DNA of 64,000 nucleotides, taken from the NCBI GenBank assembly GCA_030390025.1, contig CM059432.1, forward strand, positions 30,692,001-30,756,000, given 5' to 3'. Position numbers and translations under genes: made by a program. Source of the stretch: Squalus acanthias (taxonomy: Eukaryota). Shown piece after piece: positions 3,101-63,005 of the stretch. The notes beneath the pieces are model-generated. The model worked only from the letters and a program-made list of their open reading frames with translations. It did not search any database and had not been told where the DNA came from. Every line of letters begins with the position of its first letter. Position 1 is the first letter of the stretch.

Positions 3101-4160
3101 AAGAGAGAGGAGCAGCACTTTAAGAGTTCCTGTGCCCATAGCTCACCCCCTGACCCGGGTGCACTCCCACTGTGTCGTATGCTGTGCAGGAGAAGCATTG
3201 TGATACTATGTTAATGAGCTGACCTTGCATTATGGTTTAAAATCAGTTCCGTGCAGGACTGGTCAACCCAACTCCTGAACAACAGTGAACCCAGCACCTC
3301 CAGACCATTATTATTTTAAAAAAATTAGCAATATGGAAAAAAAACTACTAATTAAAATACCACAACTAAACAAGCTCTGCAAAAATCATACAAAGCCAGT
3401 GCCACATTAAGAGCTCCATCGTCCATCAAGTGTACCTTGCTCCCATTGCCATTCAGCGCCATTCACAACTCCTCAGATAATGAAGCAGTCCATGCCCGCA
3501 TGCAGCAAGACCTGGACGACATTCAGGCTTAAGCTGATAAGTGGCAGGTAACTACCACCCCTTGACATTCAACGGCATTAGCATCGCCGAATCCCCCACC
3601 ATCAACATCCTGGGGGGCACTATTGACCAGAACCTTAACTAGACCAGCCACATTAAATACTGTGGCAACAAGGGCAGGTCAGAGGCTGGCAATTCTGCAG
3701 CGAGTGTCTCACCTCCTGACTCCCCAAAGCCTTTCCACCATCTACAAGGCACAAGTCAGGAGTGTGATGGAATACTCTCCACTTGTCTGGATGAGTGCAG
3801 TTCCAACAACACTCAAGAAGCTCAACACCATTCAAGACAAAGCAGCCCGCTTGATTGGCACCCCATCCACCACCTTAAACATTCAATCCCTCCACCACTG
3901 TCGGACAGTGGCTGCAGTGTGTACCATCTACAAGATTCACTGCAGTAACTCGCCAAGGCTTCTTCGGCAGCACCTCCCAAACCCATGACCTCTACCACCT
4001 AGAAGGACAAGGGCAGGAAGCGCATGGGAACACCATCACCTCCAAGTGCCCCTCCAAGTCACACAGCATCCTGACTTGGAAGTATATAGCCGTTCCTTCA
4101 TCGTCGCTGGGTCAAAATCCTGGAACTCCCTCCCTAACAGCACTGTGGGAGTACCTTCAC

Positions 4161-7390: not shown

Positions 7391-8195
7391 TCACTACACG
7401 GACTGCTGCGGTTCAAGAAGGCAGCTCACCACCACCTTCTCAAGGGCAACTAGGGACGGGCAATAAATGCTGGCCTTGCCAGCGATGCCCAGATCCCATG
7501 AACGAATAAATAAATAATTCCAAATGGGTATACAAGGAAAAGAGGGAACCAAGGTCAAATCACATGGAATTGTGCATGATGCTTGAAATCTGGGGCCTTA
7601 ATGAGGCTGAGGTGAAAATGGTTGTAAGTACTAGTGCTGTGAATTTCTTTGGGGCTTCTCCCGCTCTACTGCCATAACTTTAGCGTATCTTCTGCATAAG
7701 TGTGTGCAAAATAGGGGGGGTAGATTTTCACCTGTGCCCATTTGTGCAGAGGCAGGGCGTGCCTGAACCAAAAGGCCCGAGGATCACCAGAAATCAGCCC
7801 TCAGGCCTGATCTACATATTTTAGAAACATCAATTTCAGGCCGCATGCCCTCAGGTAAGTTCTGACAGGAGGTTTGGAGCGAGTGACGGAGGGGCCGATG
7901 CGAGGTATGTGGAGTCGGAGAGTTACTCCTGCTCCTCCTGGCTCCACAGAAAGATATTTTTCAAAAAAAATTATAAACAAACTTACATTTAGTTGGCAGC
8001 TGCAGGGGCCACTTAGGAATCCTGACCGGGGCAGGCCTGATGCCTGCATGATAACAAATTTTTTGAGGTGTCCTTTAACAGGCATTACATCCCTTGTTAA
8101 CATAGTCAGAAGGTCATGGGTTCAAGTCCAACTCAAGAGATTTGAGGGCATAATCTAAGCTTAAACTCTGGTATACTACTGAGGGAATACTGCAT

Positions 8196-8979: not shown

Positions 8980-10416
8980 AACAACAACATCTTGTATTTA
9001 TATAGCGCCTTTAACATAGCAAACCGTCCCAAGGCTCTTCACAGAAGTGTTATAAAATAAAAAAATTGACACTGAGCCACATAAGGAGAAATTAGGGCAG
9101 ATGACCAAAAGCTTGGTCAAAGAGGTAGGTTTTAAGGAGTGTCTTAAAGGAGGAAAGAGAGGTAGAGAGGCGGAAAGGTTTAGGCAGGCAGTTCCAGAGC
9201 TTCGGGCCTAGGCAACAGAAGGCACGGCCACCAATGGTTGAGTGATTATAATCAGGCATGCTCAAGAGGGCAGAATTAGAGGAGCGCAGATATCTTGGGG
9301 GGTTGTGGGGCTGGAGGAGATTACAGAGATAGGGAGGGGCAAGGCCATGGAGGGATTTGAAAACAAGGATGAAAATTTTAAAGTTGAGGCATTGCTTAAC
9401 CGGGAGCCAATGTAGGTCAGCAAGCACAGGGGTGATGGGTGAATGGGACTTGTTGCGAGTTAGGACAAGAGCAGTCATGTTTTGGATGACCTCAAGCTTA
9501 CGTAGGGTAGAATGTGGGATGAAAGCCAGGAGTGCGTTGGAATAGTCAAGTCTACAGGTAAGAAAGGCATGGATGAGGGTTTCAGCAGCAGATGGACTGA
9601 GGCAGGGGCGGAGACGGGCGATGTTACGGAGGTGGAAAAAGGCAGTCTTAGTTATGCTGCGGATATGAGGTCAGAAGCTCATTTGAGGGTCAAATATGAC
9701 ACCACGGTTGCGAACAGTCTGGTTCAGCCTCAGACAGATGCTAGGGAGAGGGATGGAGTTGTTGGCTAGGGAACGGAGTTTGTGGCGGGGACCAAAGATA
9801 GTGGCTTCGGTCTTCCCAATATTTAATTGGAGAAAATTTCTGCTCATCCAGTACTGGATGTCGGACAAGCAGTCTGACAATTTAGAGACCGTGGAGGAGT
9901 CGAAAGAAGTGGTAGTGAGATAGAGCTGGGTGTCGTCAGCGTACATGTGGAAACTGACGCTGTGTTTTTGGATGATGTCGCCAAGGGGCAGCATGTAGCT
10001 GAGAAATAGGAGGGGGCCAAGGATAGATCCTTGGGGGACACCAGAGGTAATGATGCGGGAGCGGGAAGAGAAGCCGTTGCAGGTGATTCTCTGGTTACGA
10101 TTAGGTAGATAAGAATGGAACCAGGCGAGTGCAGTCCCACCCAGCTGGACGACGGTGGAGAGGCGTTTGAGAAGGATGGAGTGGTCAACCATGTCAAAGG
10201 CTGCAGACAGGTCGAGAAGGACGAGGAAGGATAGTTTACCTTTGTCACAGTCACAAAGGATATCATTTGTGTCTTTGATGAGAGCCGTTTCGGTACTGTG
10301 GCAGGGGCGGAAACCTAATTAGAGGGGTTCAAACATGGATATCCGGGAAATATGGGCACAGATTTGATAGGCGATAACACGTTCAAGGACTTTCTAGAGG
10401 GAAGGGAGATTGGAGA
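8980..10416 (-). mobile_element. 5'-truncated L2 LINE
   Basis: GVPQGSILGPLLF, HMYADDTQLY, LQLNIGKTE, PITPVLADLHWLPV, FKTLLKTYLF; (TTG)n tail. Confidence 0.92.
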
Positions 10417-17541: not shown

Positions 17542-20000
17542 CATAGATACATAGATACATAGAAGATAGGAGCAGGAGTAGGCCATCCGGCCCTTCGAGC
17601 CTGCTCCGCCATTTAATGAGATCATGGCTGATCCTTCAATTCAGTATCCCGTCCCCGCCTTCTCTCCGTAACCCTTAACCCCTTTTGCCTGTAGAAATAT
17701 ATCTAATTCCCTCTTAAATATATTTAATGAGCTGGCGTACACTGCCCTCTGTGGCAATGAGTTCCACAGGTTCACCACTCTCTGAGTGAAGAAATTCCCC
17801 CTCATTTCTGTCCTAAATGGTTTAGCCCTTATCCTTAAATTATGTCCTCTAGTTCTGTTCTCACCCGCCAAGGGAAACATTCCTTCTGCATCTAATCTGT
17901 CTAGACCTGTCAGAATTTTATACACTTCTATGAGGTCCCCTCTCAATCTTCTAAACTCCAGTGTGTACATCCCTAAACTACATAGTCTCTCCTCATAGGT
18001 CAATCCCGCCATTCCTGGTATCAGCCTGGTGAATCGCCGCTGCACCCCCTCCATGGCAAGAACATCTTTCCTCAGATGAGGCGACCAAAACTGTACACAG
18101 TACTCGAGGTGTGGTCTCACCAGTGCCCTGTACAGCTGCAGCAAGGTATCCCTGTTCCTGTATTCCAACCCTTTTGCTATGAAGGCCAGCATACCGTTTG
18201 CCTTCTTGACCGCCTGTTGCACCTGCATGCTCGCCTTCAGTGACTGGTGTACAAGAACACCCAGGTCTCTCTGTACTTCCCCCTCTCCCAATTTATTGCC
18301 ATTTAAATAATAATTTGCCCTCCCGTTCCTGCACCCAAGGTGGATAACTTCGCACTTGTCCACATTATAGTGCATCTGCCATTTATCCGCCCAATCACCC
18401 AGTCTGTCCAAATCGCTCTGGAGCTTCCTGGTCTCCTCCTCTGAGCCCACCCCCCCTCCTAGTTTAGTGTCGTCTGCAAATTTGGAAATGCTGCATTCGA
18501 CTCCCTGATCCAGGTCATTAATATAAATTGTGAACAGCTGGGGACCCAGGACAGATCCCTGTGGTACCCCACTTGTTACTGCCTGCCATTCAGAAAATGA
18601 GCCGTTTATTCCAACTCTCTGTTTTCTATCTGACAGCCAGTTCTCTATCCACGTCAATACTTTCCCCTTTATCCCATGAGCTTCAATTTTCCATGCTAAT
18701 CTTTTATGTGGGACCTTATCGAAGGCCTTTTGGAAGTCCAGGTACACCACATCTACTGGCTCTCCCCCATCTATTTTACCAGTTACTCCCTCAAAAAATT
18801 CCAATAGATTAGTCAAGCACGATTTACCCTTTGTAAATCCATGTTGACTCTGTCCTATCCTGTCCCCATTTGCTAAGTGCTCGGCTATTTCATCCTTAAT
18901 GATGGACTCCAGCATTTTGCCCACAACTGATGTAAGGCTTACAGGTCTGTAATTACCTGCTTTTTCCCTACCCCCCTTTTTGAATAGTGGGGTAACGTTA
19001 GCTACCCTCCAATCCATGGGCACTGTTCCCGAGTCTAATGAATTCTGAAAAATCATGCTTAGTGCATCCGCTATCTCTAGGGCCACCTCCTTCAGTACCC
19101 TAGGATGCATGTTATCAGGCCCTGGGGATTTGTCCGCCTTCAATCCCTTTAGCTTCCTTAACACCATATCCTTAGAGATATTGATTTGCGTCAGTTCCTC
19201 CTTTGCCAATGTCCCTATTTTTCCCGATATCCCAGGGAGGTTTTTTGTGTCTTCCTTCGTAAAGACTGACCCAAAGTATGCATTTAGTTGGTCTGCCATT
19301 TCCTTATTTCCCATTATATATTCCCCCGTATCTGACTGCAATGGACCAACTTTGGTTTTCACCAGTCTTTTCCTCTTGATATACTTATAAAAGCTTTTGG
19401 AGTTAGTTTTTATATTTTCCGCCAGCTTGCTTTCGTAAGCTATTTTGCCCTTCTTGATTAAGCCCTTTGCCCTCCTTTGCTCTATCTTAAACTGTTCCCA
19501 ATCTTCCGCTCTGGCGCGTTTTTTGGCTATTTTATACGCCCTATCTTTGGATTTTATGCTGTCTCTAATTTCCCCTGTTATCCACGGTTGAGTCACCTTT
19601 TTAGATTTCCTTTTATGCCAGATTGGTATAAACAATTTTTGCAATTTTGTCATTCTATCTTTAAATGCTTGCCATTGTTTATCTACCTCCAGTCCTCCCA
19701 GGAACGTTGTCCAATCAGACCTACTCAGTTCCCGTCTAATGGCATCATAATTCCCCTTGTTTAAATTCAGGACCTGAGTCTCTGAGTCAATTTCTTCGCT
19801 CTCCATTTCGAGTGAGAAATCGATCATGTTATGATCGCTCTGACCCAAGGGTCCCCGTACAACAAGATTACTAATTAGTCCCTTCTCATTGCACAGTACC
19901 CAGTCCAATATAGCCTGTTCCCGAGTTGGTTCCTCGACATATTGATCCAGATAACCATCCCTTAAACACTCAAGGAATTCCTCCTCCTCATTATTTCACT
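17542..20000 (-). mobile_element. Young 5'-truncated CR1 LINE
   Basis: Tandem TATCTATG-type tail, 3' UTR and uninterrupted ORF2; breaks off inside the endonuclease region near 20000. Confidence 0.95.
17641..19908 (-). CDS. CR1 ORF2 reverse transcriptase, partial (755 aa open, N-terminus missing)
   Basis: [67 protein letters not shown] in one frame. Confidence 0.9.
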   Translation of the reverse strand: MDWVLCNEKGLISNLVVRGPLGQSDHNMIDFSLEMESEEIDSETQVLNLNKGNYDAIRRELSRSDWTTFLGGLEVDKQWQAFKDRMTKLQKLFIPIWHKRKSKKVTQPWITGEIRDSIKSKDRAYKIAKKRARAEDWEQFKIEQRRAKGLIKKGKIAYESKLAENIKTNSKSFYKYIKRKRLVKTKVGPLQSDTGEYIMGNKEMADQLNAYFGSVFTKEDTKNLPGISGKIGTLAKEELTQINISKDMVLRKLKGLKADKSPGPDNMHPRVLKEVALEIADALSMIFQNSLDSGTVPMDWRVANVTPLFKKGGREKAGNYRPVSLTSVVGKMLESIIKDEIAEHLANGDRIGQSQHGFTKGKSCLTNLLEFFEGVTGKIDGGEPVDVVYLDFQKAFDKVPHKRLAWKIEAHGIKGKVLTWIENWLSDRKQRVGINGSFSEWQAVTSGVPQGSVLGPQLFTIYINDLDQGVECSISKFADDTKLGGGVGSEEETRKLQSDLDRLGDWADKWQMHYNVDKCEVIHLGCRNGRANYYLNGNKLGEGEVQRDLGVLVHQSLKASMQVQQAVKKANGMLAFIAKGLEYRNRDTLLQLYRALVRPHLEYCVQFWSPHLRKDVLAMEGVQRRFTRLIPGMAGLTYEERLCSLGMYTLEFRRLRGDLIEVYKILTGLDRLDAEGMFPLAGENRTRGHNLRIRAKPFRTEMRGNFFTQRVVNLWNSLPQRAVYASSLNIFKRELDIFLQAKGVKGYGEKAGTGY

Positions 20001-20289: not shown

Positions 20290-22510
20290 GCAAAGAGAGG
20301 GCATGAAAAAATATTGGCACGTAAAATCAAGGAAAACCCAAAGATATTTTAAAAATACATGAAGAGCAAGAGGATAACTAAAGAAAGAGTCGGGCCTATT
20401 AGAGACCAAGAAGGTAAACTGTGTTGAGGCGGATGACGTGGATATGGTTCTTAATGAATACTTTGCGTCTGTCTTCACAGAAGAGAGGGACAATGCAGAC
20501 ATTATAATTAAGGAGAAGGAGTGTGAAATATTAGATGTGATAAACATAGTGAGAGAGGAAATATTAAGGGATTTAGCATCTTTGAAAGTAGATAAATCGC
20601 CAGGCCCAGATGAAATGTATCCCAGGTTGTTAAGAGAAGCAAGGGAGGAAATAGCGAAGGCTCTGACCTTCATTTTTCAATCCTCTCTGGCTACAGGTAT
20701 GGTGCAGGAGGATTGGAGGATTGCTAACATTGTACTGTTGTTTAAAAAGGGAGAAAGGGATAGACCAAGTAATTACAGGCCAGTCAGTCTAACCTCGGTG
20801 GTGGGCAAATTATTGGAAAAAATTCTGAGGGATTAATCATCATTTAGAAAGGCACGGATTAATCAAGGACAGTCAGCATGGATTTGTTAAGGGAAGGTCA
20901 TGTCTGACTAACTTGATTGAATTTTTTGAGGAGGTAACAAGGACGGTTGATGAGGGAAGCGCGTTTGATGTAGTCTACATGGATTTTAGCAAGGCTTTTG
21001 ACAAGGTCCCGCATGGCAGACAGGTCAAAAAAGTAAAAGCCCATGAGATCCAAGGGAAAGTGGCAAGTTGGAACCAAAGTTGGCTCAGTGGCAAGAAGCA
21101 AAGGGTAATGGTTGACTGGTGTTTTTGTGACTGGATGGCTGTTTCCAGTGGGGTTCTGTAGGGCTCAGTAGTCCCTTGCTTTTTGTAGTATATATGAATG
21201 ATTTAGACATCAATGTAGGGGACATGATTAAGAAATTTGCAGATACAAAAATTGGTCGTGTGGTTGATAGTGAGGAAGAAAGCTGTAGACTGCAGGAAGA
21301 TAACAATGGGCTGGTCAAGTGGGCAGAAAAGTGGCAAATGGAATTTAATCCGGAGAAATGCGAGGTAATTCATTTGGGGAAGGCAAACAAGGCAAGGGAA
21401 TACACAATAAATGGTAGGATACTGAGAAGTGTAGCAGAACAGAAGGACTTTGGAGTGCATGTCCACAGATTCCTGAAGGTAGCAGGACAGGTAGATAAGG
21501 TGGTTAAGAAGGCATGCAGGATACTTTCCTTTATTAGCCGAGGCATAGAATATAAAAGCAGGGAGGTTATGCTTGAACCGTATAAAACATTAGTTAGGCC
21601 ACAGCTAGAGTATTGCGTACAGTTCTGGTCACCCCATTACAGGAAAGATGTGATTGCACTAGAAAGGGCACAGAAGAGATTTACGATGATGTTGCCAGGA
21701 CTGGAGAATTTTAATTATGAGGAAAGATTGGATAGGCTGATGTTGTTTTCTTTGGAACAGAGGAGGCTGAGTGGAGACTTAAGTGAAGTGTATAAAATTA
21801 TGAGGGGTCCAGATAGAGTGGATAGAAAGGACCTATTTCCCTTAGCAGACAGAAAAGAAAGAAAGACTTGCATTTATACAGCACCTTTCACGACCACCGG
21901 ACATCTCAAAGCACTTTACAGCTAATGAAGTACTTTTGAAGTGTAATCACTGTTGTAATGTGGAAAATGCAGCAGCCAATTTGCGCACAGCAAGCTCCCA
22001 CAAACAGCAATGTGAAAATGACCAGATAATCTGTTTTTTTTTTGTTATGTTGGTTGAGGGAGAAATATTGGCCAGGACACCGGGGATAACTCCCCTACTC
22101 TTCTTCAAAATAGTGCCATGGGATCTTTTACGTCCACCTGAGAGGGCAGACGGGGCCTCGGTTTAACGTCTCATCTGAAAGATGGCACCTCCGACAGTGC
22201 AGCACTCCCTCAGCACTGCACTGGAGTGTCAGCTTCGCTTTATGTGTGCAAGCCCCTCGAGTTGGACTTGAACTCACAACCTTCTGACTCAGAGGCAAGT
22301 GTGCTACCAACTGAGCCACAGCAGACAGGTCAATAGCCAGGGGGCATAGATTTAAAGTCATTGGTAGAAGGATCAAAGGGGAGTTGAGGATAATTTTTTT
22401 CACCCAGAGGGTGGTTGGGGTCTGGAACTCACTGCCTGAAAGGGTGGTAGAGGCAGAAAACCTCATTGCATTTAAAAAGTACTTGGATATGCACTTGAAG
22501 TGCCGTAACC
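20290..22510 (+). mobile_element. Decayed CR1 LINE (different subfamily), split by a SINE
   Basis: ORFs 20438-20836, 20913-21161, 21176-21925 and 22384-22575 carry RT motifs with stops and frameshifts. Confidence 0.92.
21853..22319 (-). mobile_element. Full-length Deu-domain tRNA SINE
   Basis: A-box TGGCTCAGTTGG, B-box GAGTTCAAGTCC, Deu core, L2-type tail; TSD AGCAGACAG (21844-21852, 22320-22328). Confidence 0.9.
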
Positions 22511-38759: not shown

Positions 38760-39690
38760 TAACCTGCAGCCTTTGACACGGTTGACCAGGGTTGACCACA
38801 CACCACCTTCCTCCAACGCCTCTCCTCTGCCTTCCAGCTGGGTGGAACTTCACTCACCTGGTTCCATTATTATCTATCCAGTTGTAGCCAGAGCATTACC
38901 TGCAATGGCTTCTCTTCGTGCTCTTGCACCGTTACCTCTGGAGTCCCCCAAGGATCTATCTAAATTGTCAGACTGTTTATCTGATATGGGTATGGTAGCA
39001 TAGTGGTTATATTACTGGACTAATAATCCAGAGGACTAATGATCCAGAGACATGAGTTCAAATCCCACCACGGCAGCTGGGGAATTTAAATTCAATTAAA
39101 TAAATCTGGAATAAAAAGCATCAAGTATCAGTAAGGGTGACCATGAAACTACCATCTGGTTTACTAATGCCCTTATATAGGGAAGGAAATCTGCTGTCCT
39201 TACCTGCTCTGGCCTATGTGTGGCTCCAGACCCCCAGACCCACAGCAATGTGGTTGACTCTTAACTGCCCTCTGAAATGGCCAAGCAACTATCTAACCTC
39301 TACAAAGAAGTGGTTCAAGAAGGTGGCTCACCACCACCTTCAAGGGCAATTAGGAATGGGCAATAAATGCTGGCTTTTCCAGTGATGCCCACATCCTATG
39401 AACGAATAAAAAAAAAAATCCAGTACTCAAGGAAAAATTTCCTCCAACTAAATATTGGGAAGACCGAAGCCATTGTCTTCGGACCCCACCACAAACTTCA
39501 TTCCTTAGCTACCAACTCCATCCCTCTTCCTGGCAACTGTTCGAGGCTGAACCAGACTATTGCAACCTTGGTCTCGTATTTGACTCCAAGAGGGGCTTCC
39601 GACCATATATCCGCGACATCACTGAGACCGCCGTAACATCTGCTGCTGAAACCCTCATCTATGCCTTTGTTACATCTAGACTTGAATATT
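38760..39690 (+). mobile_element. Internally deleted L2 fragment hosting a SINE
   Basis: Matches the reverse complement of parts of 8980-10416; NFLQLNIGKTEAIVFGP. Confidence 0.8.
38988..39417 (+). mobile_element. tRNA-headed SINE made of the 5' and 3' ends of the LINE at 59065-62190
   Basis: A-box TAGCATAGTGG (38996-39006); B-box AGTTCAAATCC (39055-39065); LINE 3' end and poly(A); host L2 rejoins with AT duplicated. Confidence 0.85.
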
Positions 39691-53163: not shown

Positions 53164-55169
53164 ATGGCAGTGCAGGTGGTGTGCTGTAACTGCAGCATGT
53201 GGGAGTTTGTGGAGACCAGCGAGACCCCGAGCAACCACATCTGCAGTAAGATGGTTGTGGTGGTTGAAGGTCAATCATCACAGCCCCAGTACATCGCTGC
53301 AGGAGTTCCTCAGGGCAGTGTCCTAGGCCCAACCATCTTCAGCTGCTTCATCAATGACCTTCCCTCCAACATAAGGTCAGAAATGGGGATGTTCGCTGAT
53401 GACTGCACAGTGTTCAGCACCATTCGCAACTCCACAGATAATGAAGCAGTCCATGCCCGCATGCAACAAGACCTGGACAACGTTCAGGCTTGGGCTGATA
53501 AGTGGCAGGTAACATTCACGCCACAGAAGTGCCAGGCAATGACTATCTCCAACAAGCGAGAGTCTAACCACCTTCCATTGACATTCAATGGCATTACCAT
53601 CGCCGAATCCCCCACTATCAACATCCTGGGGGTCACCATTAACCAGAAACTTAACTGGACCAGCCACATAAATACTGTGGCAACAAGAGCAGGTCAGAGG
53701 CTAGGTATTCTGCGGCGAGTGTCTCACCTCCTGACTCCCCAAAGCCTTTCCACCATCTACAAGGCACAAGTAAGGAGTGTGATGGAATACTCTCCGCTTG
53801 CCTGGATGAGTGTAGCTCCAACAACACTCAAGAAGCTCGACACCATCCAGGACAAAGCAGCCCACTTGATTGGCACCCCATCCACCACCTTAAACATTCA
53901 CTCCCTCCACCACCGGCGTACCGTGGCTGCAGTGTGTACCATCTACAAGATGCACTGCAGCAACTCGCCAAGGCTTCTTCGGCAGCACTTCCCAAACCCG
54001 CGACCTCTTCCACCTAGAAGAACAAGGACAGCACGCGCATGGGAACACCACCACCACCAAGTTCCCCTCCAAGTCACACACCATCCTGACTTAGAAGTAT
54101 ATCGCTGATCCTTCATCGTCGCTGGGTCAAAATCCTGGAACTCCCTACCTAACAGCACTGTGGGAGTACCATCACCACACGGACTGCAGCGGTTCAAGAA
54201 GGTGGCTCACCACCACATTCTCAAGGGCAACTAGGGATGGGCAATAAATGCTGGCATTGCCAGCGACGCCCTGATCCCATAAACAAATTAAAAAAAAGTG
54301 TCTGCAGCTCGAGGAACTTTGGCTCAGAGTTGTTGAGCTGGAGTCTGAGGTGCAGACATTGCGGAGCCTCAGTGAGGGGGAGGGTTACCTGGACACTTTG
54401 TTCCAGGAGGCAGTCACACCCCTTAGATTAAGTAGTACTTTAGAGTTTGTCAATGGTCAGGGACAGGAGGGTGTGACCGCGAGTCAACAAGGTATGGGGA
54501 CCCAGAATGTAGTGATGGAGGAGTCTCAGCCCTTGACTTTGACCAACAGGTATGAAATACTTGTTACCTGTGGGGATGAAAACAAGGACTGCAGGGTGGA
54601 TGAACAAACTGACCATGGCATCATGATGCAGGAGGCCATACAAATGGAGGTAGTGAAAATGAACGTGGTAGTGGTAGGGGACAGTATAGTCAGAGGGATA
54701 GATACTTCTCTGCAGCCGCGACCAGGAGTTCCGAAGGTTGCGTTGCCTGCCTGGTGCCAGGGTAAAGGATGTCTCCTCGCGGCTGGAGAAGAACTTGGGG
54801 TGGGAGGGGGAGGATCCAGTTGTCATGGTACATGTAGCAACCAACAACATAGATAGAACTAGGAATGAGGTTCTGCTGAGAGAGTTTGAGGAGCGAGGGT
54901 CAAAATTAAAATGCAGAACCTCACAGGTAATAATCTCTGGATTTTTACCTGAGCCACATACAAATTGGCAAAGGGACAAACAGATTAGAAGGTTAAATGC
55001 GTGGCTCAAAGAGTGGTGTGGGAGGCAGGGGTTTCAATTCATGGGGCAGTGGCACCAGTACTGGGGAAAGAGGGAGGTGTTCCGTGGGGACGGGCTCCAC
55101 TTAAACCGGGCTGGGACCACAGTCCTGGCAAATCGAATAACTGAGGCAGTAGATAGGACTTTAAACTAA
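53164..55169 (+). pseudogene. CR1 ORF1 (Cys zinc finger, leucine zipper, SGNH esterase), interrupted at 53251-54297
   Basis: VCCNCSMWE...HICSK|CLQLEELWLRVVELE; VVGDSIVRG; HVATNN; DGLHLN. Confidence 0.88.
53251..54297 (+). mobile_element. Well-preserved 5'-truncated copy of the tRNA-headed LINE family
   Basis: [37 protein letters not shown]; poly(A) end; splits CR1 ORF1. Confidence 0.92.
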
Positions 55170-55329: not shown

Positions 55330-58160
55330 GGAAAAATAGAAAAAAGTTAAAGCTAAAGGTACTATATCTGAATGCATGAAAGATTCGCAACAAAATAGAT
55401 GAATTAATAGCGCAGATAGAAATAAATGGGTTTGATTTAATAGCCATTATAGGTTGCAGAGTGACCAAGGTTGGAAACTAAATATTCCAGGATATTTGAC
55501 TTTTAGAAGAGACAGGCAGAATGGAAAAGGAGGAGGTATAGCCTTGATAATAAAGGAGGGAATAAAGACAGTAGAGAGAAAGGATTTTGGCTTAGAAAAA
55601 CAAAATGTAGAATCAGTTTGCATGGAGCTAAGAAACACCAAGGGGCAGAAAACACTAGTGGGAGTAGTCTATAGGCCCCCAAACAATGGTTGTAGTGTCA
55701 GGCAGAGTATAAATCAGGAAATTAGAGATGCATGTAACAAGGGTAATACAGTAATCATGGTGGACTTTAATTTTCATATTGACTGGGCAAACCAAATTTG
55801 CAGAAATAGTGCAGAGGAAGAGTTCATGGAATGCATTCAAGATAGTTTTCTAGATCAGTATGTCAAGGAACCAAAGAGGGAATTGGTTATTTTAGATCTA
55901 GTACTGTGCAATGAGACAGGGTTAATTAATAACTTTGTAGTAAAGAAGCCTCTGGGGAGCAGTGATCATAATATGATAGAATTTTATGTTGCGTTTGAGA
56001 GTGATTTAGTTAAATCTGAAACTAGGGTCCGAAACCTGAACAAAGCAAACTATGTAGGTATGAGAGACAAGTTGGCTAAGGTAGGTTGGGAAACTAGATT
56101 AAAAGATATGACAGTAGAAAAGCAATGGCAAACATTTAAAGAAATAATTCATAATTTGTAACGAATATACATTCCCTTAAGGAATACAAACACCACAGGA
56201 AAAATGGTCCAACCGTGGCTAAGAAAAGAAATTAAAGATAGTATTGGATTAAAGGAAGAGGCTTATAATGTTGCCAAAAAGAATAGTAAGCCTGAGGTGT
56301 GGGAGGATTTTAGAATTCAGCAAATGAGGACCAAGAAATTGATAAAGAAAGGGAAAATAGAATATGAGAGTAAACTAGGGAGAGACATAAATACAGACTG
56401 AAAAAGCTTCTATAGGTGTGTAAAAAGGAAAAGATTAATGAAAGTAAACATGAGTCCCTTACAGGCTGAGTCAGGAGAAATTATAATGGGGAATAAGGAA
56501 ATGGCAGGGAAATTAAACAAATACTTTGTGTCTGTCTTCACGGAAGAAGACGCAAAAATCCTCCTGGAAATAGTGGCGAACCAAAGGTTTAGCGAAAATG
56601 AGGAACTGAAAGAAATTAGTATTAGTAAAAAAAATAGTACTGGAGAAATTAATGGAACTGAAAGCCAATAAATCTCCTGGACCTGATGGCCTACATCCTA
56701 GGATTTTAAAAGAGGTGGCTATAGAGATGGTGCATGAATTGGTTATCATCTTCCAAAATTCCATAGATTCTAGAACGTTTCCCGTGGATTGGAAGGTACC
56801 AAATTTAACCCCACTATTTATGAAAGGAGGGAGAGTGAAAATGGGGAACTACAGACCAGTTAGCTTGACGTCAGTAGCAGGGAAAATGTTAGAATCTATT
56901 ATTAAGGATGTGGTAACAAGGCACTTAGAAAATAATAATAGGATTGGGCAGAGTCAACACAGATTTATGAAAGGAACATCATGTTTGACGAACCTGTTAG
57001 AGTTTTTTGAGGTTGTAACTAGCAGAATAGACAAGGGGGAACCAGTGGATGTGGTACATTTGGATTTTCAGAAGGTATTGGATAAGGTGCCACACAAGAG
57101 GTTATTAAACAAAATTAGGGTTCATGGGATTGGGGGTAATGTACTAGCATGGATTGAGGATTGGTTAATGGACAGAAAACAGAGAATAGGAATAAATGGG
57201 TAATTTTTGGGTTGGCAGGCTGCAACTAGTGGGGTACCGCAAGGATCAGTGCTTGGGCCTCAGCTACTCACAATCTACATCAATGATTTGGATGAGGGGA
57301 CCAAATGTAATATATCCAAGTTTGCTGATGATACAAAGCTAGGTGGGAATGTAAGTTGTGAGGAGGATGCAAAGAGGCTTCAAGAGGATATAGACAGGCT
57401 AAGTGAATGGGCAAGAACATGGCAAATGGAATATAATGTGGAGAAATGTGAAGTTATCCACTTTTGTAGGAAAATTAGAAAAGCAGAGTATTTTTTAAAT
57501 GGTGAGAGATTGGGAAATGTTGGTGTTCAGAGGGACCTGGGTGTCCTTGTACATGAATCATTGAAAGTTAACATGCAGGTTCAGCAAGCAATTAAGAAAG
57601 CAAATGGTATGTTAGCCTTTATTACACGAGGATTTGAGTATAAGAGTAAAGAGTTATTACTGCAATTATATAGGGCCCCTGGTGAGACCACACCTGGAGT
57701 ATTGTGTACAGTTTTGGTCTCCTTAACTAAGGAAGGATATACTTGCCATAGAGGGAGTGCAACGAAGGTTCGCCAGACTGATTCCTGGAATGGGGGGATT
57801 GTCCTTTGAGGAGAGATTGAGTAGACTAGTCCTATATTCTCTAGAGTTTAGAAGAATTAGGGGTCATCTCATTGAAACATACAAAATTCTTTCAGGGCTT
57901 GACAGGTTAGATGCAGGGAGGATGTTTCCCCTGGCTGGGGAGTCTAGAACCAACGGTTACTGTCTCAGAATAAGGGGTCGGCCATTTAGGACTGAGATGA
58001 GGAGAAATTTCTTCACTCAGAGGGTGGTGAATCTTTGGAATTCTCTACCCCAGAGGGCTGTGAAGGCTCAGTCGTTGAGTATATTCAAGACAGAGATTGA
58101 TAGGTTTTTGGATATTTAGGGAATCAAGGGATATGGGGATAGTGCAGGAAACTGGAGTTG
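55330..58160 (+). pseudogene. CR1 ORF2 (APE endonuclease and RT) with multiple stops and frameshifts
   Basis: [48 protein letters not shown]. Confidence 0.92.
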
Positions 58161-58744
58161 AGGTAGAAGATCAGCCATGATCTTATTGAATGGCGGAGCA
58201 GGCTCGAGCAGCCAAATGACCTACTCCTGCTCCTATTTCTTATGTTCTTATGTTCTTATGTAAATGGACACCATGGTGCAGGTGCGCAAATTAATCTTTG
58301 TTACTGAACATAGCAGTGGAGCCATTGCATTTTCAGTCGCAGAAGTTGGAGGCAGATCTACTGTCCTTTCTTAGCTGGACAAGAAGCCAAAGTCTTGAAC
58401 TCTGCCCTGTCTCCTGCTCTCCCATCCAAGGATTGGGCCAATTGAATTTCCAATCAAACCAGATTACTGCCCTCCTAGGGTTAGGCTCCTGGCTGCTGTT
58501 CCCTCCCTCAGTAGGCTCACATGAAAAAAGCTACACTAACATAATATGTATGTATGTTTACTAGAATGTCTTAATGAACCTCATTCAATTGGATTTAATT
58601 TGCATTCTTAACAAATGGTTATTCTGTGGATTTAATCCATTTTGAGCAGAAGTTAACTTAATAACGACATCTTCGTATCAATTATCTGAAATCCCCTCTG
58701 GACTCTGGACAGTGCTGTATAAATACAAGCTTTGTTATTGTTGT

Positions 58745-61700
58745 TACATAGGGACAGGAGTAGACCGTACAGACCCTCGAGCCTGTTCTGTCATTCAATC
58801 AGATCATAGCTGAACTGTACCTCAATTCCATTTACCCGCCTTTGATCGATATCCCTTGATACCTCTAGCTAGCAAAGATTTATCGATCTCAGTCTTGAAA
58901 ATTCCAATTGATAGCAGTCTTTTGGAGACATAATTTCACCTTTCCATGACTTTTTGTGTGAAAAAGTGCTTCCTGCTTTCACTCCTGAATGGCCTCGCTC
59001 TATTTTTTAACATTGTGCCCGTCATGTTCTGGATTCCCCAACCAGAGGTAATAACTTCTCAGCATTTTTTTAGTTTATTCATTCATGGAATGTGGGCGTC
59101 GCTGGCAAGGACAGCATTTATTGCCCATCCCTAATTACTCTTGAGAAGATAGTGGTGAGCCATGACTTGAACCACTGCAGTCCGTGTGGTGAAAGTACTC
59201 CCACAGTGCTGTTAGGTGGGGAGTTCCAGGATTTTGAACCAGCGACGATGAAGGAACGGCAATATATTTCCAAGTCAGGATCATTCGTGCCGTGGAGGGG
59301 AACTTGGAGGTGGTGGTGTTCCCATGCTCCTGCTGCCTTTCTCCTTCTAGGTGGTACAGGTCGCGGGTTTGGAAGGTGCTCTCGAAGAAGCCTTGGAGAG
59401 TTGCTGCAGTGCATCTTGTAGATGGTACACACTGCAGCCACGGTGCGCTGGTGGTCGAGGGAGTGAATGTTTAAGGTGGTGGATGGGGTGCCAATCAAGT
59501 GGGCTGCTTTGTCCTGAATGGTGTTGAGCCTCTTGAGTGTTGTTGGAGCTGCACTCATCCAGGCAAGTGGAGCGTATTCCATCACACTCCTTACTTGTGC
59601 CTTGTGGGTGGTAGAAAGGCTTTGGGGAGTCAGGAGGTGGGTCACTCACCACAGAATATCCAGCCTCTGACCTGCTCTTGTAGCCACAGTATATATGTGG
59701 CTGGTCCAGTTAAGTTTCTGGGCAATGGTGACTCCCAGGATGTTGCTTGTGGGGAATTTGATGATGGTAATGCTATTGAATGTCAAGGGGAAGTGGTTAG
59801 ACTCTCTTGTTGGAGATGATCATTGCCTGGCACTTGTGTGGCCCAAATGTTACTTGCCACTTATCAGCCCAAGCCTGGATGTTGTCCAGGTCATGTTGTA
59901 TGCGGGCACGGACTGCGCCGTTATCTGATGAATAGCGAATGGAACTGAACACAATGCAATCATCAGCGAACATCCCCACTTCCCCAGCTGAAGTTGTTTG
60001 GGCCTAGGAAACTGCCCTGAGGAACTCCTGCATTGATGTCCTCGGGCCGAGATGATTGGCCTCCAACAAACATGATCATCTTTCTTTGTGCTAGGTATGA
60101 TTCCAACCAGTGGAGAGTTTTCCCTGATCCTCATTGACATCAATTTTACTAGGGTTTCAAATGCTGCCTTGATGTCAAGGGCAGTCACTCTCACCTCACC
60201 TCTGGAATTCAGTTCTTTTGTCCAATTTTGGACCAAGGCTGTAATGAGGTCTGGAAGCCAAGTGGTCCTGGTGGAACCCAAACATTAGCATTGGTGAGTA
60301 AGTGCCACTTGATTGCACTGTCAACGACACCTTCCATCACTTTGCTGATGATTGAGAGTAGGCTGATGGAGTGGAAAGTGGCCAGATTTAATTTGTCCTG
60401 CTTTTTGTGGACAGGGCATATCTGGTCAATTTTCCACTTTGTCGGGTAGACACCAGTGTTGTAGCTGTGCTGGAACAGCTTGGCTAGAGCACGGCTAGTT
60501 CTGGAGCACAGGTCTTCGGCACTACAGCCGGGATGTTTTTGGGGCCCATAGCCTTTGCTGTATTCAGTTCGCTCAGCCATTCCTTGACATCACGTGGAGT
60601 GATTCGAATTGGCTGAAGACTGGTATCTGTGATGGTGGGGATCTCAGGAGGAGGCCAAGATGGATCATCCACTCGGCACGCATGACTGAAGATGGTTGTG
60701 AATGCTTCAGTCTTGACTTTTGCACTTATATGCTGGGCTCCTCTATCATTGAGGATAGGGATTGTCATGGAGCCTCCTCCTCCCGTTAGCTGTTTAATTG
60801 TCCACCACTATTCACGACTGAATGTGGCAGGACTGCAGAGCTTTGATCTGATCCATTGGTTGTGGTATCGCTTAGCTCTGTCTATAGCATGCTGCTTCTG
60901 CTGTTTAGCATGCATGCTGTGTTGTAGCAACACCAGGTTGACACCTCATTTTTTAGGAATGCCTGGTGCTGCTCCTGGCATGCTCTTCTACACTTCAATT
61001 GAACCAGAGTTGGTCCCCTGGCTTGATGGTAATGGTAGAGTGAGGGATATGCCGGACCATGAGGTTACAGATTGTGGTGGAATTTAATTCTGCTGCTGCT
61101 GATGGCCCACAGCACCTCATGGATACCCAGTTTTGAGCTGCTAGATCTGTCCTGAATCTATCCCATTTAGCACGATGGAGGGTGTCCTCAGTGTGAACAT
61201 GGGACTTCGTCTCCATAAGGACTGTGCAGTGGTCACTCCTACCAATACTGTCATAGACAGATACATCTGCGACAAGTAGATTGGTGAGGACAAGGTCAAG
61301 AAGGTTTTTCCCTCACCATCTGCCGCAAGACCAGTTTGGCAGTTATGTCGTTCAGGACTTGGCCAGCTCAGTCAGTAGTAGTGCTACCGAGCCACTCTTG
61401 GTGACGGGCATTGAAGTGCCCCACCCAGAGTACATTCTGTGCATTTGCTGTCCTCAGTGCTTCTTCCAAATAGTGTTCAAAATGGAAGAATACTGAATCA
61501 TCAGCTGAGGGAGGGTGATAGGTTGTAATCAGCAGGAGGTTTCCCTGCCCATGTTTGACCTGATGCCATTAGACATTATGGGGTCCAGAGTCAATGTTGA
61601 GGACTCCCAGTGCCACTCCCTCTCCACAGTATATAACTGTGTTGAATCCTGTGGGACAGGACATACCCAGGGATTATGATGGAGGAGTCTGGGATGTTAG

Positions 61701-62353
61701 CTGATAGGTCTGATTCTGTGAGTATGGCTATGTCAGGATATTGCTTGACAAGTCTGTGGGACAGCTCTCCCAATTTTGACACAAGTCCACAGATGTTAGT
61801 GAGAGGACTTTGCCGGGTCGACTGGGCTGGGTTGTGTCCGAGTCCGATGCCTAGGTTGACCCGTACGGTTTTATTATTATTATACCTTTTTGTAGTGGTT
61901 TGATACAACTGAGTCGCTCGCTAAGCCATTTCAGAGGGCTGTTAAGAGTCAACTGCATTGTTGTTGGTCTGAAGTCACATATAGGCCAGACTGGGAAAAG
62001 ACGACAGGTTTCCTTCCCTAAAGGACATTAGTGAACCAGTTGGGTTTTTATGACTAATCATGGTCACCATTACTAATACTAGCTTTTTGTTCCAGATTTA
62101 TTTAATTAACTGAATTCAAGTTCACAAAATGCCATGGTGGGAATTGAACCCCCGAATGACTAGTCCAGTAACATAACCAATATGCTACCATATCTACTCT
62201 ATTGACTCCTTTTATCATTTTAAAATTTCAACTTGATCAACCTTCAACCTTCTAAACTAAAAGGAATACATCCCAGGTTTATGCAACATATCCTCATAAT
62301 TTAACCTGTTAAGGTCTGGGATAATTCTGGTGCATCTGCGCTGTACACTCTCC
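58745..62353 (-). mobile_element. Old CR1 3' fragment (58745-59064 and 62191-62353) split by the tRNA-headed LINE
   Basis: CR1 3' UTR and C-terminal sequence continue on both sides of the insertion. Confidence 0.75.
59065..62190 (-). mobile_element. Near full-length single-ORF endonuclease-RT LINE with a tRNA-type 5' head (CR1/L2 group, clade unresolved), decayed
   Basis: A-box 62187-62177; B-box 62150-62140; endonuclease start NICGLVSKLGEL...PDIAILTES; SISLLSIISKVME, ALDIKAAF, MFADDC; A-rich tail. Confidence 0.88.
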
Positions 62354-63005
62354 TGTGAAGGAATAAGCCATATAACCTATTTAGAAAAATATACCATCTT
62401 ATGAAGGAGTTCTGGCCTTATTAAAATATGACAAACTGGGTTTGGAAATTTAGAAACCTAACTATGAAATAGCTATGAAAGCATTCTGGCTATTGAGATA
62501 AGACAGTTGTTGACCCTGAATAAATAACCTTATTGAAACAGAAGGTGCACGGCTCTGACAAGCTGACCTTTTGGGAACAAAACAATGGTTCACCCTGGAT
62601 AAGGTGTTCTAATTTAAACTTTGTAAAGATGGCACATAAGATAAGGAACATCTGCCCTCATAAAGATGACATAAAATAAGGAACACCTGTCGTTCACACC
62701 GTTTTTATATGGTCAACCCAGAACACCTGGAGATTTGACAAGATTCTGGCTGATGTGGCAGTAAGAGTTGCAGAGGTCGGCAGAAAAATGAATAGAGATA
62801 ATTAACTTGTATCAGCAGAAAACCTTAAAGGAAATACCACTGGAAAAGGGTATAAATATTGAACTCTCGAATAGGATATCAGACTCGCTTTAATCGGGCA
62901 AAGTGATTCTCAGCTTCAGAGGCGGCTCTGTAGTCTACCACTCTTTGTACCTCGGGGATCAAAGGTATTTGGTATTGATGGATATCCTGTAAAGAGAACC
63001 TTAAG
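62354..63005 (+). mobile_element. Putative truncated LTR
   Basis: Starts TGTGAAG at the CR1 breakpoint; ~30-bp tandem duplication at ~62625-62690; TATAAAT at 62851; cut by Penelope. Confidence 0.35.

What the first reader, a model, noticed from the sequence alone, without database searches (positions are those of the whole stretch)
59065..62190. Protein-coding LINE that starts with a tRNA-type Pol III promoter
Seen: the minus-strand element begins TGGTAGCATATTGG (A-box, 62187-62177) and GGTTCAATTCC (B-box, 62150-62140). It runs about 380 nt into an APE endonuclease start, continues through RT and ends in an A-rich tail. The host CR1 resumes right after the head and right after the tail, so head and ORF inserted as one unit. 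Established: A/B-box heads are the mark of non-coding SINEs, while autonomous LINEs are normally Pol II transcripts. Inference: an autonomous LINE driven by an internal Pol III promoter. I cannot verify whether this has been described.
Basis: partly seen in the sequence, partly recalled or inferred. Interest (0 to 1): 0.9.

Follow-up and report, generated by a model that had tools for sequence, protein, structure and literature searches.

The report
LINE family headed by tRNA-type promoter
A protein-coding jumping gene (LINE) present in thousands of copies in this vertebrate genome starts with the tRNA-like promoter head that normally marks short non-coding SINEs, which suggests but does not prove that it is copied by RNA polymerase III.

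Summary
The minus-strand element at 62190-59065 is one old, damaged copy of a ~3.1-3.3 kb single-ORF (endonuclease + reverse transcriptase) LINE.

- **Single insertion.** An uninterrupted copy of the surrounding repeat shows that head to tail went in as one unit.
- **Head is the family 5' end.** Of 29 other copies found through their endonuclease region, 14 carry the complete tRNA-like head and 15 are 5'-truncated at scattered points. None has another leader. Full-length copies begin at GGGAACGG, with the A box at +8/+9.
- **Head and ORF inherited together.** Head type and ORF variants co-vary between subfamilies (Mantel r 0.81).
- **ORF was under selection.** Shared ORF variants favour third codon positions.
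- **SINE derivative.** A 0.42-kb SINE equals this LINE minus its ORF.
- **T runs.** The sense strand has no conserved T4 run, unlike related and neighbouring LINEs. This is only weakly significant.

Polymerase III transcription is the best-fitting mechanism but is untested. I found no description in eight literature searches, and I could not consult Repbase or Dfam.

The parts
59065..62190 (-). One old full-length copy (3.1 kb) of the head-bearing LINE family
   Evidence: It is collinear at about 80% identity with 13 other head-to-tail copies. It is a single insertion by the empty-site comparison with L086.
62131..62190 (-). tRNA-derived head. In this copy it lacks about 35 nt between the boxes and the first few bases.
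   Evidence: Alignment with 13 full-length copies. Family heads are about 95 nt and start GGGAACGGTAGC.
62177..62187 (-). A box TAGCATATTGG, one mismatch. The family form TAGC[A/G]TAGTGG is an exact TRGCNNAGTGG.
62140..62150 (-). B box GGTTCAATTCC. The family form is GTTCAAATC, which fits GWTCRANNC.
61798..62130 (-). 5' leader between head and endonuclease frame. Most of it is also the body of the related SINE.
61030..61797 (-). Endonuclease (APE) coding remnant, frame broken
   Evidence: Pfam Exo_endo_phos_2 scores 25.6 bits on window 61368-61568, under the 27.4 cut-off. It scores 34.1 bits, above the cut-off, on the same region of copy L074.
59670..60403 (-). Reverse-transcriptase coding remnant
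   Evidence: tblastn of P0001 on the window. Pfam RVT_1 has E 8.5e-38 in P0001, from copy L075.
59131..59133 (-). Stop codon TAG of the ORF
59101..59115 (-). 3' tail hairpin. The family form is GCTGGC-CTT-GCCAGC. This copy has one arm mismatch.
   Evidence: read from the alignment
59065..59071 (-). Short A run at the 3' end
62191..62400 (-). Upstream half of the older host repeat that the LINE landed in
58735..59064 (-). Downstream half of the same host repeat
38994..39415 (+). ORF-less SINE of the same family. It consists of the head, LINE positions up to about 335, and the last ~105 nt of the LINE.
   Evidence: In one search, 26 of 39 other genome hits cover it end to end.
53245..54291 (+). 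Younger 5'-truncated copy of the same LINE (3' 1 kb)
   Evidence: 94.6% identity to copy L071. 93.9% amino-acid identity to P0001.

Best explanation
**Shown.** This is a family of single-ORF LINEs of about 3.1-3.3 kb, with an APE endonuclease and a reverse transcriptase, a short 3' UTR with a hairpin, and a short A run. The copies that gave rise to new ones (master copies) carry a ~95-nt tRNA-derived, SINE-type head with A and B boxes at the extreme 5' end. Head, leader, ORF and tail are inherited together. The ORF was under purifying selection while the head-bearing lineages diversified. Deleting the ORF gives a 0.42-kb SINE with the same head, body and tail.

**Inferred.** The head works as it does in SINEs. 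TFIIIC binds the A and B boxes and Pol III starts at head +1, so every full-length RNA carries its own promoter into the new copy. The RNA can run the 3.2 kb because the sense strand holds no T4 terminator.

**Inferred, more loosely.** The protein may come from the same uncapped RNA by an unconventional start, since the frame has no ATG. Or it may come from rarer Pol II read-through transcripts, with the Pol III RNAs then mobilised in trans through the shared 3' hairpin tail, as the SINE is.
For: **Genome-wide recurrence.** Head plus leader has 9212 first-look candidates. All 29 other fetched loci run from the head region at least 100 nt into the endonuclease frame, and 17 of 29 run at least 1 kb further.

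**Sample not chosen by the head.** Of 29 other copies anchored on the endonuclease region, 14 have the whole head, 4 are cut inside it, 2 just after it and 9 further 3'. No alternative leader was seen.

**Full-length copies.** 13 of 20 long fetches are collinear from head to tail. Their upstream flanks are unrelated to each other and the elements start at (G)GGAACGG.

**Sharp 5' end.** With a better copy as query, 27 of 39 other hits start within the first 6 nt of the head. This ranking favours long matches.

**Box layout.** The A box lies at 8-18 and the B box at 73-81. None of the 6 subfamily-level variable head sites hits a specified box base (about 1 in 3 by chance).

**Co-inheritance.** Head and leader variants co-vary with ORF variants (Mantel r 0.81, permutation p 0.0002).

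**Selection on the ORF.** Shared ORF variants by codon position are 19/13/33 (chi-square p 0.008). Private ones are 202/199/188 (p 0.76).

**T runs on the sense strand.**
- Each copy has 0-1 runs of four or more T (the window copy has 3).
- No alignment bin holds such a run in at least 7 of 14 copies, against 13 bins for A, 11 for C and 9 for G.
- 39 related ORFs have a minimum of 5 and a median of 27.
- Five other LINE RT stretches in this window have 4.3 per kb, against 0 in 3.2 kb of this family's RT stretches.

**SINE derivative.**. Contigs of two runs from two other coded organisms join the leader directly to the tail (table 7).

**Open frames.** Frames of up to 962-986 aa occur among 79 scored matches.
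Against: **No transcript evidence.** The run search listed no holder on record as RNA. The contigs laid cannot show RNA starts.

**T-run statistics are weak.**
- Dinucleotide-preserving shuffles expect only 1.5-3.1 T4 runs per copy, because TT is already rare (observed/expected 0.63-0.77).
- Per-copy P is 0.04-0.50.
- A single-base model gives about 4.6 expected, P about 0.01 (my arithmetic).

**Head is only weakly tRNA-like.** Rfam gives 14.5 bits, ARAGORN finds nothing, and the fold z-score is -0.73.

**Length.** From general knowledge, Pol III transcripts of 3 kb are not known in vivo. Kojima 2024 (PMC10886601, passages read) argues that Pol III processivity limits such elements to about 1 kb.

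**Translation.** Pol III RNAs are uncapped and poorly translated. The ORF has no in-frame ATG at its start, and in-frame stops precede it in most copies. So translation is unexplained under any model.
Confidence: 0.5

Rival explanations
1. **Pol II LINE with a resident SINE head.** The head is truly part of the LINE, but the LINE is transcribed by Pol II from an internal promoter that overlaps the head and leader and starts at or near +1. The A and B boxes matter only for the ORF-less SINE derivative, or bind TFIIIC for another purpose.
For: All described autonomous LINEs are taken to be Pol II transcripts (PMC5786205 and PMC10886601, passages read). Translation of a 950-aa ORF is easier from a capped RNA. 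The T4 depletion is not significant under dinucleotide shuffles. AATAAA motifs lie near the 3' end.
Against: The sharp 5' end, with the A box at +8/+9, is the geometry of Pol III start-site choice. No known Pol II core motif was sought or seen at +1. The T4 contrast with relatives and with neighbouring LINEs has no explanation under this model.
Confidence: 0.3
2. **Recurrent chimeras.** The LINE masters have no head. During each reverse transcription the enzyme often jumps, inside the shared leader, from LINE RNA onto abundant SINE RNA, so new LINE copies acquire a SINE head.
For: SINE and LINE share about 330 nt of 5' sequence, which could guide a switch. Sporadic small-RNA/L1 chimeras are known (bioRxiv 10.1101/2025.02.02.635956, passages read). 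SINE and LINE subfamilies active at the same time could mimic the co-variation.
Against: In the endonuclease-anchored sample no copy ends at a common headless 5' end. 14 of 29 have the whole head and the rest are cut at scattered points, though three lie within 12 nt at 61953-61964. Switching would have to occur in nearly every full-length copy.
Confidence: 0.08
3. **5' processing signal.** The LINE is carried in read-through host transcripts, and the tRNA-like head directs RNase P-type cleavage at +1. This would be analogous to the self-cleaving ribozymes at the 5' ends of R2 and some other LINEs.
For: It would explain a sharp 5' end without a promoter. Ribozyme-processed LINE 5' ends are known (cited in PMC5786205, passage read).
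Against: The head does not fold as a cloverleaf. The first seven bases have no complementary 3' strand, and the fold is no better than shuffles (z -0.73; 41 of 200 shuffles fold at least as well). ARAGORN and Rfam do not call a tRNA.
Confidence: 0.05
4. **One-off accident.** A SINE happened to lie next to, or fuse with, this single LINE copy.
For: None after testing.
Against: Searches show the same junction in dozens of copies on many contigs. One search shows a single insertion.
Confidence: 0.01

Closest known systems
tRNA-derived SINEs with a LINE-derived tail (SINE2 class). In cartilaginous fishes, SacSINE1 and CmiSINEs are paired with L2-2_CM (PMC5499810, abstract and passages read).
   Same: tRNA-type head with A and B boxes at the 5' end. 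Body. 3' tail shared with a partner LINE. The 0.42-kb ORF-less form found here is an ordinary member of this kind by layout.
   Different: Here the same head and body also sit on the 3.2-kb protein-coding partner itself. That paper reports only tail homology between SINE and LINE.
Bipartite non-autonomous LINE derivatives and SINEs whose bodies come from LINE 5' regions: RIME/ingi, NARTc/L1Tc, Bov-A/Bov-tA, and RTE- and Vingi-derived SINE bodies (Kojima 2018, PMC5786205, abstract and passages read).
   Same: The short element equals the 5' part plus the 3' part of the long element, made by internal deletion. Copies with differing internal deletions also occur here (L002, L004, L007, L029, L030).
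   Different: In those cases the autonomous LINE has no small-RNA head. The head is proposed to be added after the deletion. That paper states that SINEs cannot encode a protein, and that only RTE and Vingi 5' regions were found in SINE bodies.
TRIMp3 (Cassandra, Helenus, Ajax): LTR retrotransposon derivatives with a Pol III promoter from 5S rRNA or tRNA (Kojima 2024, PMC10886601, abstract and passages read).
   Same: A small-RNA-gene promoter is built into a retrotransposon other than a classical SINE.
   Different: Those are short (0.3-1.3 kb), non-coding and LTR-type. The author argues that their autonomous partners must use Pol II.
Sporadic small-RNA/L1 chimeric insertions (U6/L1, tRNA/L1, Alu/L1; bioRxiv 10.1101/2025.02.02.635956, passages read).
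   Same: A small Pol III RNA sequence is joined to the 5' side of LINE sequence.
   Different: Those are rare. The preprint lists 21 tRNA/L1 loci, mostly half tRNAs in antisense, with variable junctions on 5'-truncated L1, and they do not propagate. Here the junction is fixed, in sense, at the 5' end of full-length elements, and inherited by thousands of copies.
LINEs that do not rely on their own Pol II promoter: R2 and R1 co-transcribed with rRNA and released by a 5' ribozyme (recalled, and cited in PMC5786205).
   Same: A precedent that a LINE template RNA can be made by a polymerase other than Pol II.
   Different: Those depend on the target gene's Pol I promoter and a ribozyme. They have no internal Pol III promoter carried by the element.

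Membership tests
LINE (APE-type non-LTR retrotransposon) | Reverse transcriptase domain | tested here: met
   Pfam RVT_1 has E 8.5e-38 (130.6 bits, cut-off 29.6) in P0001 from copy L075. The window copy matches P0001 by tblastn.
LINE (APE-type non-LTR retrotransposon) | Apurinic-type endonuclease domain N-terminal to the RT | tested here: met
   Pfam Exo_endo_phos_2 scores 34.1 bits (cut-off 27.4) in copy L074. The window fragment scores 25.6 bits, just under the cut-off.
LINE (APE-type non-LTR retrotransposon) | Dispersed copies with frequent 5' truncation, a common 3' end and no LTRs | tested here: met
   15 of 29 anchored copies are 5'-truncated at different points. The 3' end is shared.
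LINE (APE-type non-LTR retrotransposon) | Autonomy: the ORF is kept functional in master copies | tested here: inconclusive
   Third-position excess among shared variants and open frames up to 962-986 aa argue for it. No fully intact copy was verified, and no ATG start was found.
LINE clade (L2 / CR1 / Crack group) | RT phylogenetic placement with named reference elements | not testable with these tools
   Nearest proteins are at most 47% identical and unnamed, or labelled only 'jockey' or hypothetical (Branchiostoma). No Repbase or Dfam references were available.
tRNA-derived SINE head (type 2 Pol III promoter) | A box TRGCNNAGTGG near +8 and B box GWTCRANNC 30-60 nt downstream | tested here: met
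   In family copies the A box lies at 8-18 and the B box at 73-81. The consensus strings are recalled from general knowledge. The window copy has one A-box mismatch.
tRNA-derived SINE head (type 2 Pol III promoter) | Recognisable descent from a tRNA | tested here: inconclusive
   Rfam tRNA scores 14.5 bits, E 4.7, below the gathering score of 29. ARAGORN finds none. The fold is not better than shuffles.
tRNA-derived SINE head (type 2 Pol III promoter) | Transcription by Pol III | not testable with these tools
   No RNA run on record. Contigs cannot show starts.
SINE (as a class) | Short (about 100-700 bp) and non-coding | tested here: not met
   The element in question is 3.1-3.3 kb and encodes APE + RT. 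Only its ORF-less derivative at 38994-39415 meets this.
SacSINE1 / Deu-SINE (for the ORF-less derivative) | Deu domain in the body | not tested
   No Deu or SacSINE1 consensus could be read. There were no readable supplements for PMC5499810 and no hit in the PMC5804259 supplement.

The most novel reading that the evidence does not exclude
An autonomous LINE that behaves as a 'coding SINE'. Pol III makes the full 3.2-kb RNA from the tRNA-type head. The endonuclease/RT is translated from that uncapped RNA by an AUG-independent, internal-entry type of start. Simple loss of the ORF then gives birth to a classical tRNA-SINE in one step. That SINE may be of the widespread SacSINE1/Deu type, whose conserved body would then be a LINE leader. 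This would reverse the usual order proposed for SINE birth, in which deletion comes first and the head is added later.
Probability: 0.3. Interest if true: 0.95.

Novelty: new variant of a known kind. Interest (0 to 1): 0.8.

Why it matters
Textbook and specialist accounts draw a hard line. LINEs are coding and made by Pol II. SINEs are non-coding and made by Pol III. How a small-RNA head comes to be joined to LINE-derived parts is an old open question. Here a single family shows both states with the same head: the long coding form and its ORF-less short form.

- If the head is active, this is a LINE that carries a Pol III promoter. It would also show that Pol III can deliver a 3-kb template.
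- Even if the LINE uses Pol II, the family gives a directly testable, one-deletion route from LINE to SINE.
- It also offers a natural system to ask how a LINE ORF without an ATG is translated.
- Young copies and long open frames suggest that bench tests on real copies are feasible.

Tried and rejected
- **RNA evidence.** The look-up of sequencing runs listed no holder on record as RNA. The four runs laid are contigs of guessed kind. They can show neither starts nor expression.
- **T-run statistics.** Dinucleotide shuffles do not make the T4 absence significant. An in-genome control taken from the fetched loci gave only one usable unrelated stretch. I replaced it with the five other LINE stretches of the window.
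- **Rfam hit.** The CLRN1-AS1 hit in the leader (E 0.16) did not recur on three better copies, so I take it as chance.
- **Heads on relatives.** 80 metagenome contigs carrying relatives at 28-46% identity showed no A+B head upstream and no ARAGORN tRNA. One A+B match lies downstream of the LINE in L101. By my reading of the table, only about 30 of the 80 reach far enough upstream, so this is weak evidence that the head is special to this family.
- **Empty site.** Host-repeat copies inside the window and the early loci were themselves truncated or did not span the site. A genome search then gave L086.
- **Target-site duplications.** My script failed after three copies. None is obvious by eye. 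I make no claim beyond the overlap of at most 3 bp at the window copy.
- **SINE-borne versus LINE-borne heads.** Not done.
- **Earlier findings of this scan.** Nothing on this family by words, sequence or place.
- **Upstream ATG.** An ATG in another frame, present in one subfamily only, was considered as a frameshift start. I dropped it because it is not conserved.
Full report
**What is at the coordinates.**
- Read on the minus strand, the element starts at 62190 with TGGTAGCATATTGG. Its A-box part is 62187-62177, with one mismatch to TRGCNNAGTGG.
- GGTTCAATTCC lies at 62150-62140.
- The element reaches an endonuclease-type frame (..LTNICGLVSKLGELSHRLVKQYPDIAILTES..) at about 61797.
- It runs through reverse-transcriptase similarity (about 60400-59670) to a TAG at 59133-59131, a 66-nt 3' UTR and a short A run ending at 59065.
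- The ORF is broken into many pieces.
- ARAGORN calls no tRNA in the window.
- The box consensus strings are from general knowledge.

**It went in as one piece.** The flanks belong to an older repeat with 3357 first-look candidates. In an uninterrupted copy of that repeat (L086) the upstream flank ends where the downstream flank begins, with a 3-base overlap. Head, ORF and tail were therefore one insertion, with a target duplication of at most 3 bp.

**The head is the 5' end of the family.**
- The first 500 nt (head, leader, start of the endonuclease frame) have 9212 first-look candidates. All 29 other loci fetched continue from the head region at least 100 nt into the endonuclease frame, and 17 of 29 continue at least 1 kb further. 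Five carry different internal deletions.
- Because that sample was chosen by the head, I repeated it with a query from the endonuclease region only.
  - Of 29 other copies, 14 carry the whole head including the A box.
  - 4 are cut inside the head, 2 just after it and 9 further 3'.
  - The upstream DNA of the truncated ones is unrelated from copy to copy, so there is no second kind of leader.
  - Three truncations fall within 12 nt (61953-61964), which I note but cannot interpret.
- Of 20 longer stretches fetched, 13 are collinear from head to tail in one alignment. They measure 3091-3288 nt.
- Aligned, they begin at (G)GGAACGGTAGC after unrelated flanks. They show that the window copy lacks about 35 nt between the boxes and the first few bases.
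- With a better-preserved copy as query, 27 of 39 other hits (88-94% identical) start within the first 6 nt of the head. This ranking favours long matches.
- In family numbering the A box is at 8-18 and the B box at 73-81, the spacing of a tRNA gene with a long variable region.
- The head is only weakly tRNA-like by other measures. Rfam tRNA gives 14.5 bits, E 4.7. Its fold is no better than shuffles, z -0.73.

**Head and ORF are one lineage, and the ORF was kept working.**
- Two head types (..GCATAGTGGTTATGTT.. and ..GCGTAGTGGTAATGTC..) go with different variants along the leader, ORF and tail. Distances at 17 shared head and leader sites correlate with distances at 70 shared ORF sites (Mantel r 0.81, permutation p 0.0002, 14 copies).
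- Variants shared by four or more copies, which arose in master lineages, fall 19/13/33 on codon positions 1/2/3 (p 0.008). Private variants, which reflect decay after insertion, fall 202/199/188 (p 0.76). That is the mark of purifying selection on the protein while head-bearing masters diversified.
- Pfam finds RVT_1 (E 8.5e-38) and Exo_endo_phos_2 (34.1 bits).
- A protein search of the genome finds copies 91-94% identical in the RT half, with open frames up to 962-986 aa among 79 scored matches. I verified no fully intact copy.

**A SINE is the same element without its ORF.**
- At 38994-39415 (+) the window holds a 0.42-kb element made of the same head, LINE positions up to about 335 and the last ~105 nt of the LINE.
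- 26 of 39 other genome hits cover it end to end.
- Contigs of runs labelled with two other coded organisms go from the leader straight into the tail (table 7).
- In all four runs laid, the leader part has several-fold more summed depth than the head or the endonuclease part (table 2). Those contigs also show that pieces at least 88% like the head, leader and endonuclease region occur under four organism labels. They say nothing about transcription.

**Is it built for Pol III?**
- A necessary condition is met. The sense strand has 0 or 1 run of four or more T per copy (3 in the window copy). No alignment bin holds one in at least 7 of 14 copies, against 13, 11 and 9 such bins for A, C and G.
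- 39 related ORFs of 700 aa or more from metagenome contigs have 5 to 54, median 27. They are T-richer (0.24-0.36 against 0.20-0.21).
- Five RT-coding stretches of other LINE families in this same window have 25 in 5.8 kb. The three RT stretches of this family in the window have none in 3.2 kb.
- Against this, TT is already rare in the family. Dinucleotide-preserving shuffles therefore expect only 1.5-3.1 T4 runs per copy, and the per-copy P is 0.04-0.50.
- I treat the T-run result as support, not proof.

**What does not fit any simple model.**
- The endonuclease/RT frame has no ATG at its start. Relatives begin with Met 1-10 residues before the N-[IL]-R-G-L motif.
- This family reads ..KVLLTNIWGL.. 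with the frame open about 45 codons further up. There most copies have ATG GCC TAG (10 of 14) and a second in-frame stop (7 of 14).
- Translation is therefore unexplained whichever polymerase makes the RNA.

**Mechanism.**
- *Shown:* the architecture, its inheritance, the selection on the ORF and the SINE derivative.
- *Inferred:* the head acts as an internal Pol III promoter that fixes the start at +1, so that each full-length RNA carries its promoter. A sharp 5' end without transduced flank needs an internal promoter or processing.
- *Inferred, more loosely:* protein comes either from the same RNA by an unconventional start, or from occasional Pol II read-through RNAs. In the second case the Pol III RNAs are mobilised in trans through the shared 3' hairpin tail, as the SINE must be.
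- *Rivals:*
  - an internal Pol II promoter, with the boxes serving only the SINE;
  - repeated template switching from LINE RNA to SINE RNA, disfavoured by the lack of any headless full-length class;
  - RNase P-type processing, disfavoured by the lack of a cloverleaf;
  - a one-off chimera, refuted.

**What is known.**
- Kojima 2018 (PMC5786205; abstract and passages) derives SINE bodies from the 5' parts of RTE and Vingi LINEs through internally deleted intermediates. It states that such LINEs are Pol II transcripts and that SINEs cannot encode a protein.
- Kojima 2024 (PMC10886601; abstract and passages) describes short non-coding LTR elements with Pol III promoters. It argues that their autonomous partners must use Pol II because of Pol III's processivity.
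- Luchetti et al. 2017 (PMC5499810; abstract and passages) pair cartilaginous-fish SINEs (SacSINE1, CmiSINEs) with the L2-2_CM LINE through the tail only.
- A 2025 preprint (10.1101/2025.02.02.635956; passages) lists 21 sporadic tRNA/L1 chimeras, mostly antisense half-tRNAs.
- Eight full-text searches turned up no LINE family with a small-RNA head. Subscription papers, Repbase and Dfam were out of reach, and the supplements of PMC5499810 could not be read. A curated record may therefore exist.
- The clade is unresolved. The nearest proteins are at most 47% identical and mostly unnamed.
- Among 80 metagenome contigs with relatives, none shows such a head upstream. About 30 of the 80 reach far enough upstream, by my reading of the table.

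**Verdict.** The Pol III reading is the best-fitting mechanism, at about even odds, and is untested. I rate this a new variant of known kinds (LINE and SINE) and of high interest.

Noticed in passing
window 61900-61800 (-); loci L064-L077, L082: The endonuclease/RT frame has no in-frame ATG. Relatives start with Met just before the N-[IL]-R-G-L motif. Here the frame stays open about 45 codons upstream and is preceded by ATG GCC TAG and a second stop in most copies.
   Followed up: partly
window 38994-39415 (+): A 0.42-kb SINE with the same head, the LINE leader as its body and the last ~105 nt of the LINE. It may be a SacSINE1-type element. If so, the Deu domain would lie in a LINE leader. This was not testable here.
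   Followed up: partly
window 53245-54291 (+), 3452-4162 (+), 7392-7510 (+): Three further 5'-truncated copies of the same LINE. The first is clearly younger (94.6% identical to copy L071).
   Followed up: partly
window 56637-57677 (+), 17728-19227 (-), 9182-10393 (-), 20531-21862 (+), 5831-6532 (-): RT-coding remnants of other LINE families (24-36% identical to P0001). I used them only as T-run controls.
   Followed up: no
L081 (G000:C6:149773250-149774150): Upstream of a family-like RT with a 986-aa open frame, the DNA is unrelated to this family's head, leader or endonuclease region. It could be a different N-terminal part, or a truncated copy that is open by chance into its flank.
   Followed up: no
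L064, L065 3' ends: In 2 of 14 copies the element ends ..GAATTTTAAAAAA, that is, with a T4 run right before the A run. The other copies read ..GAATAAAAAA.
   Followed up: no
L032, L042, L048 (window equivalents 61964, 61959, 61953): Three of 29 anchored copies are 5'-truncated within 12 nt of each other in the leader. This could be a truncation hot spot or a minor internal start.
   Followed up: no
L101 5482-5535: A metagenome contig with a distant LINE relative has an exact A-box/B-box pair downstream of the LINE, not at its 5' end.
   Followed up: no
L046 25-78, L049 36-90 (-): Exact A+B heads of a different kind (TGGC..AGTGG) lie in the flanks of two loci. They are probably another SINE family of this genome.
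   Followed up: no
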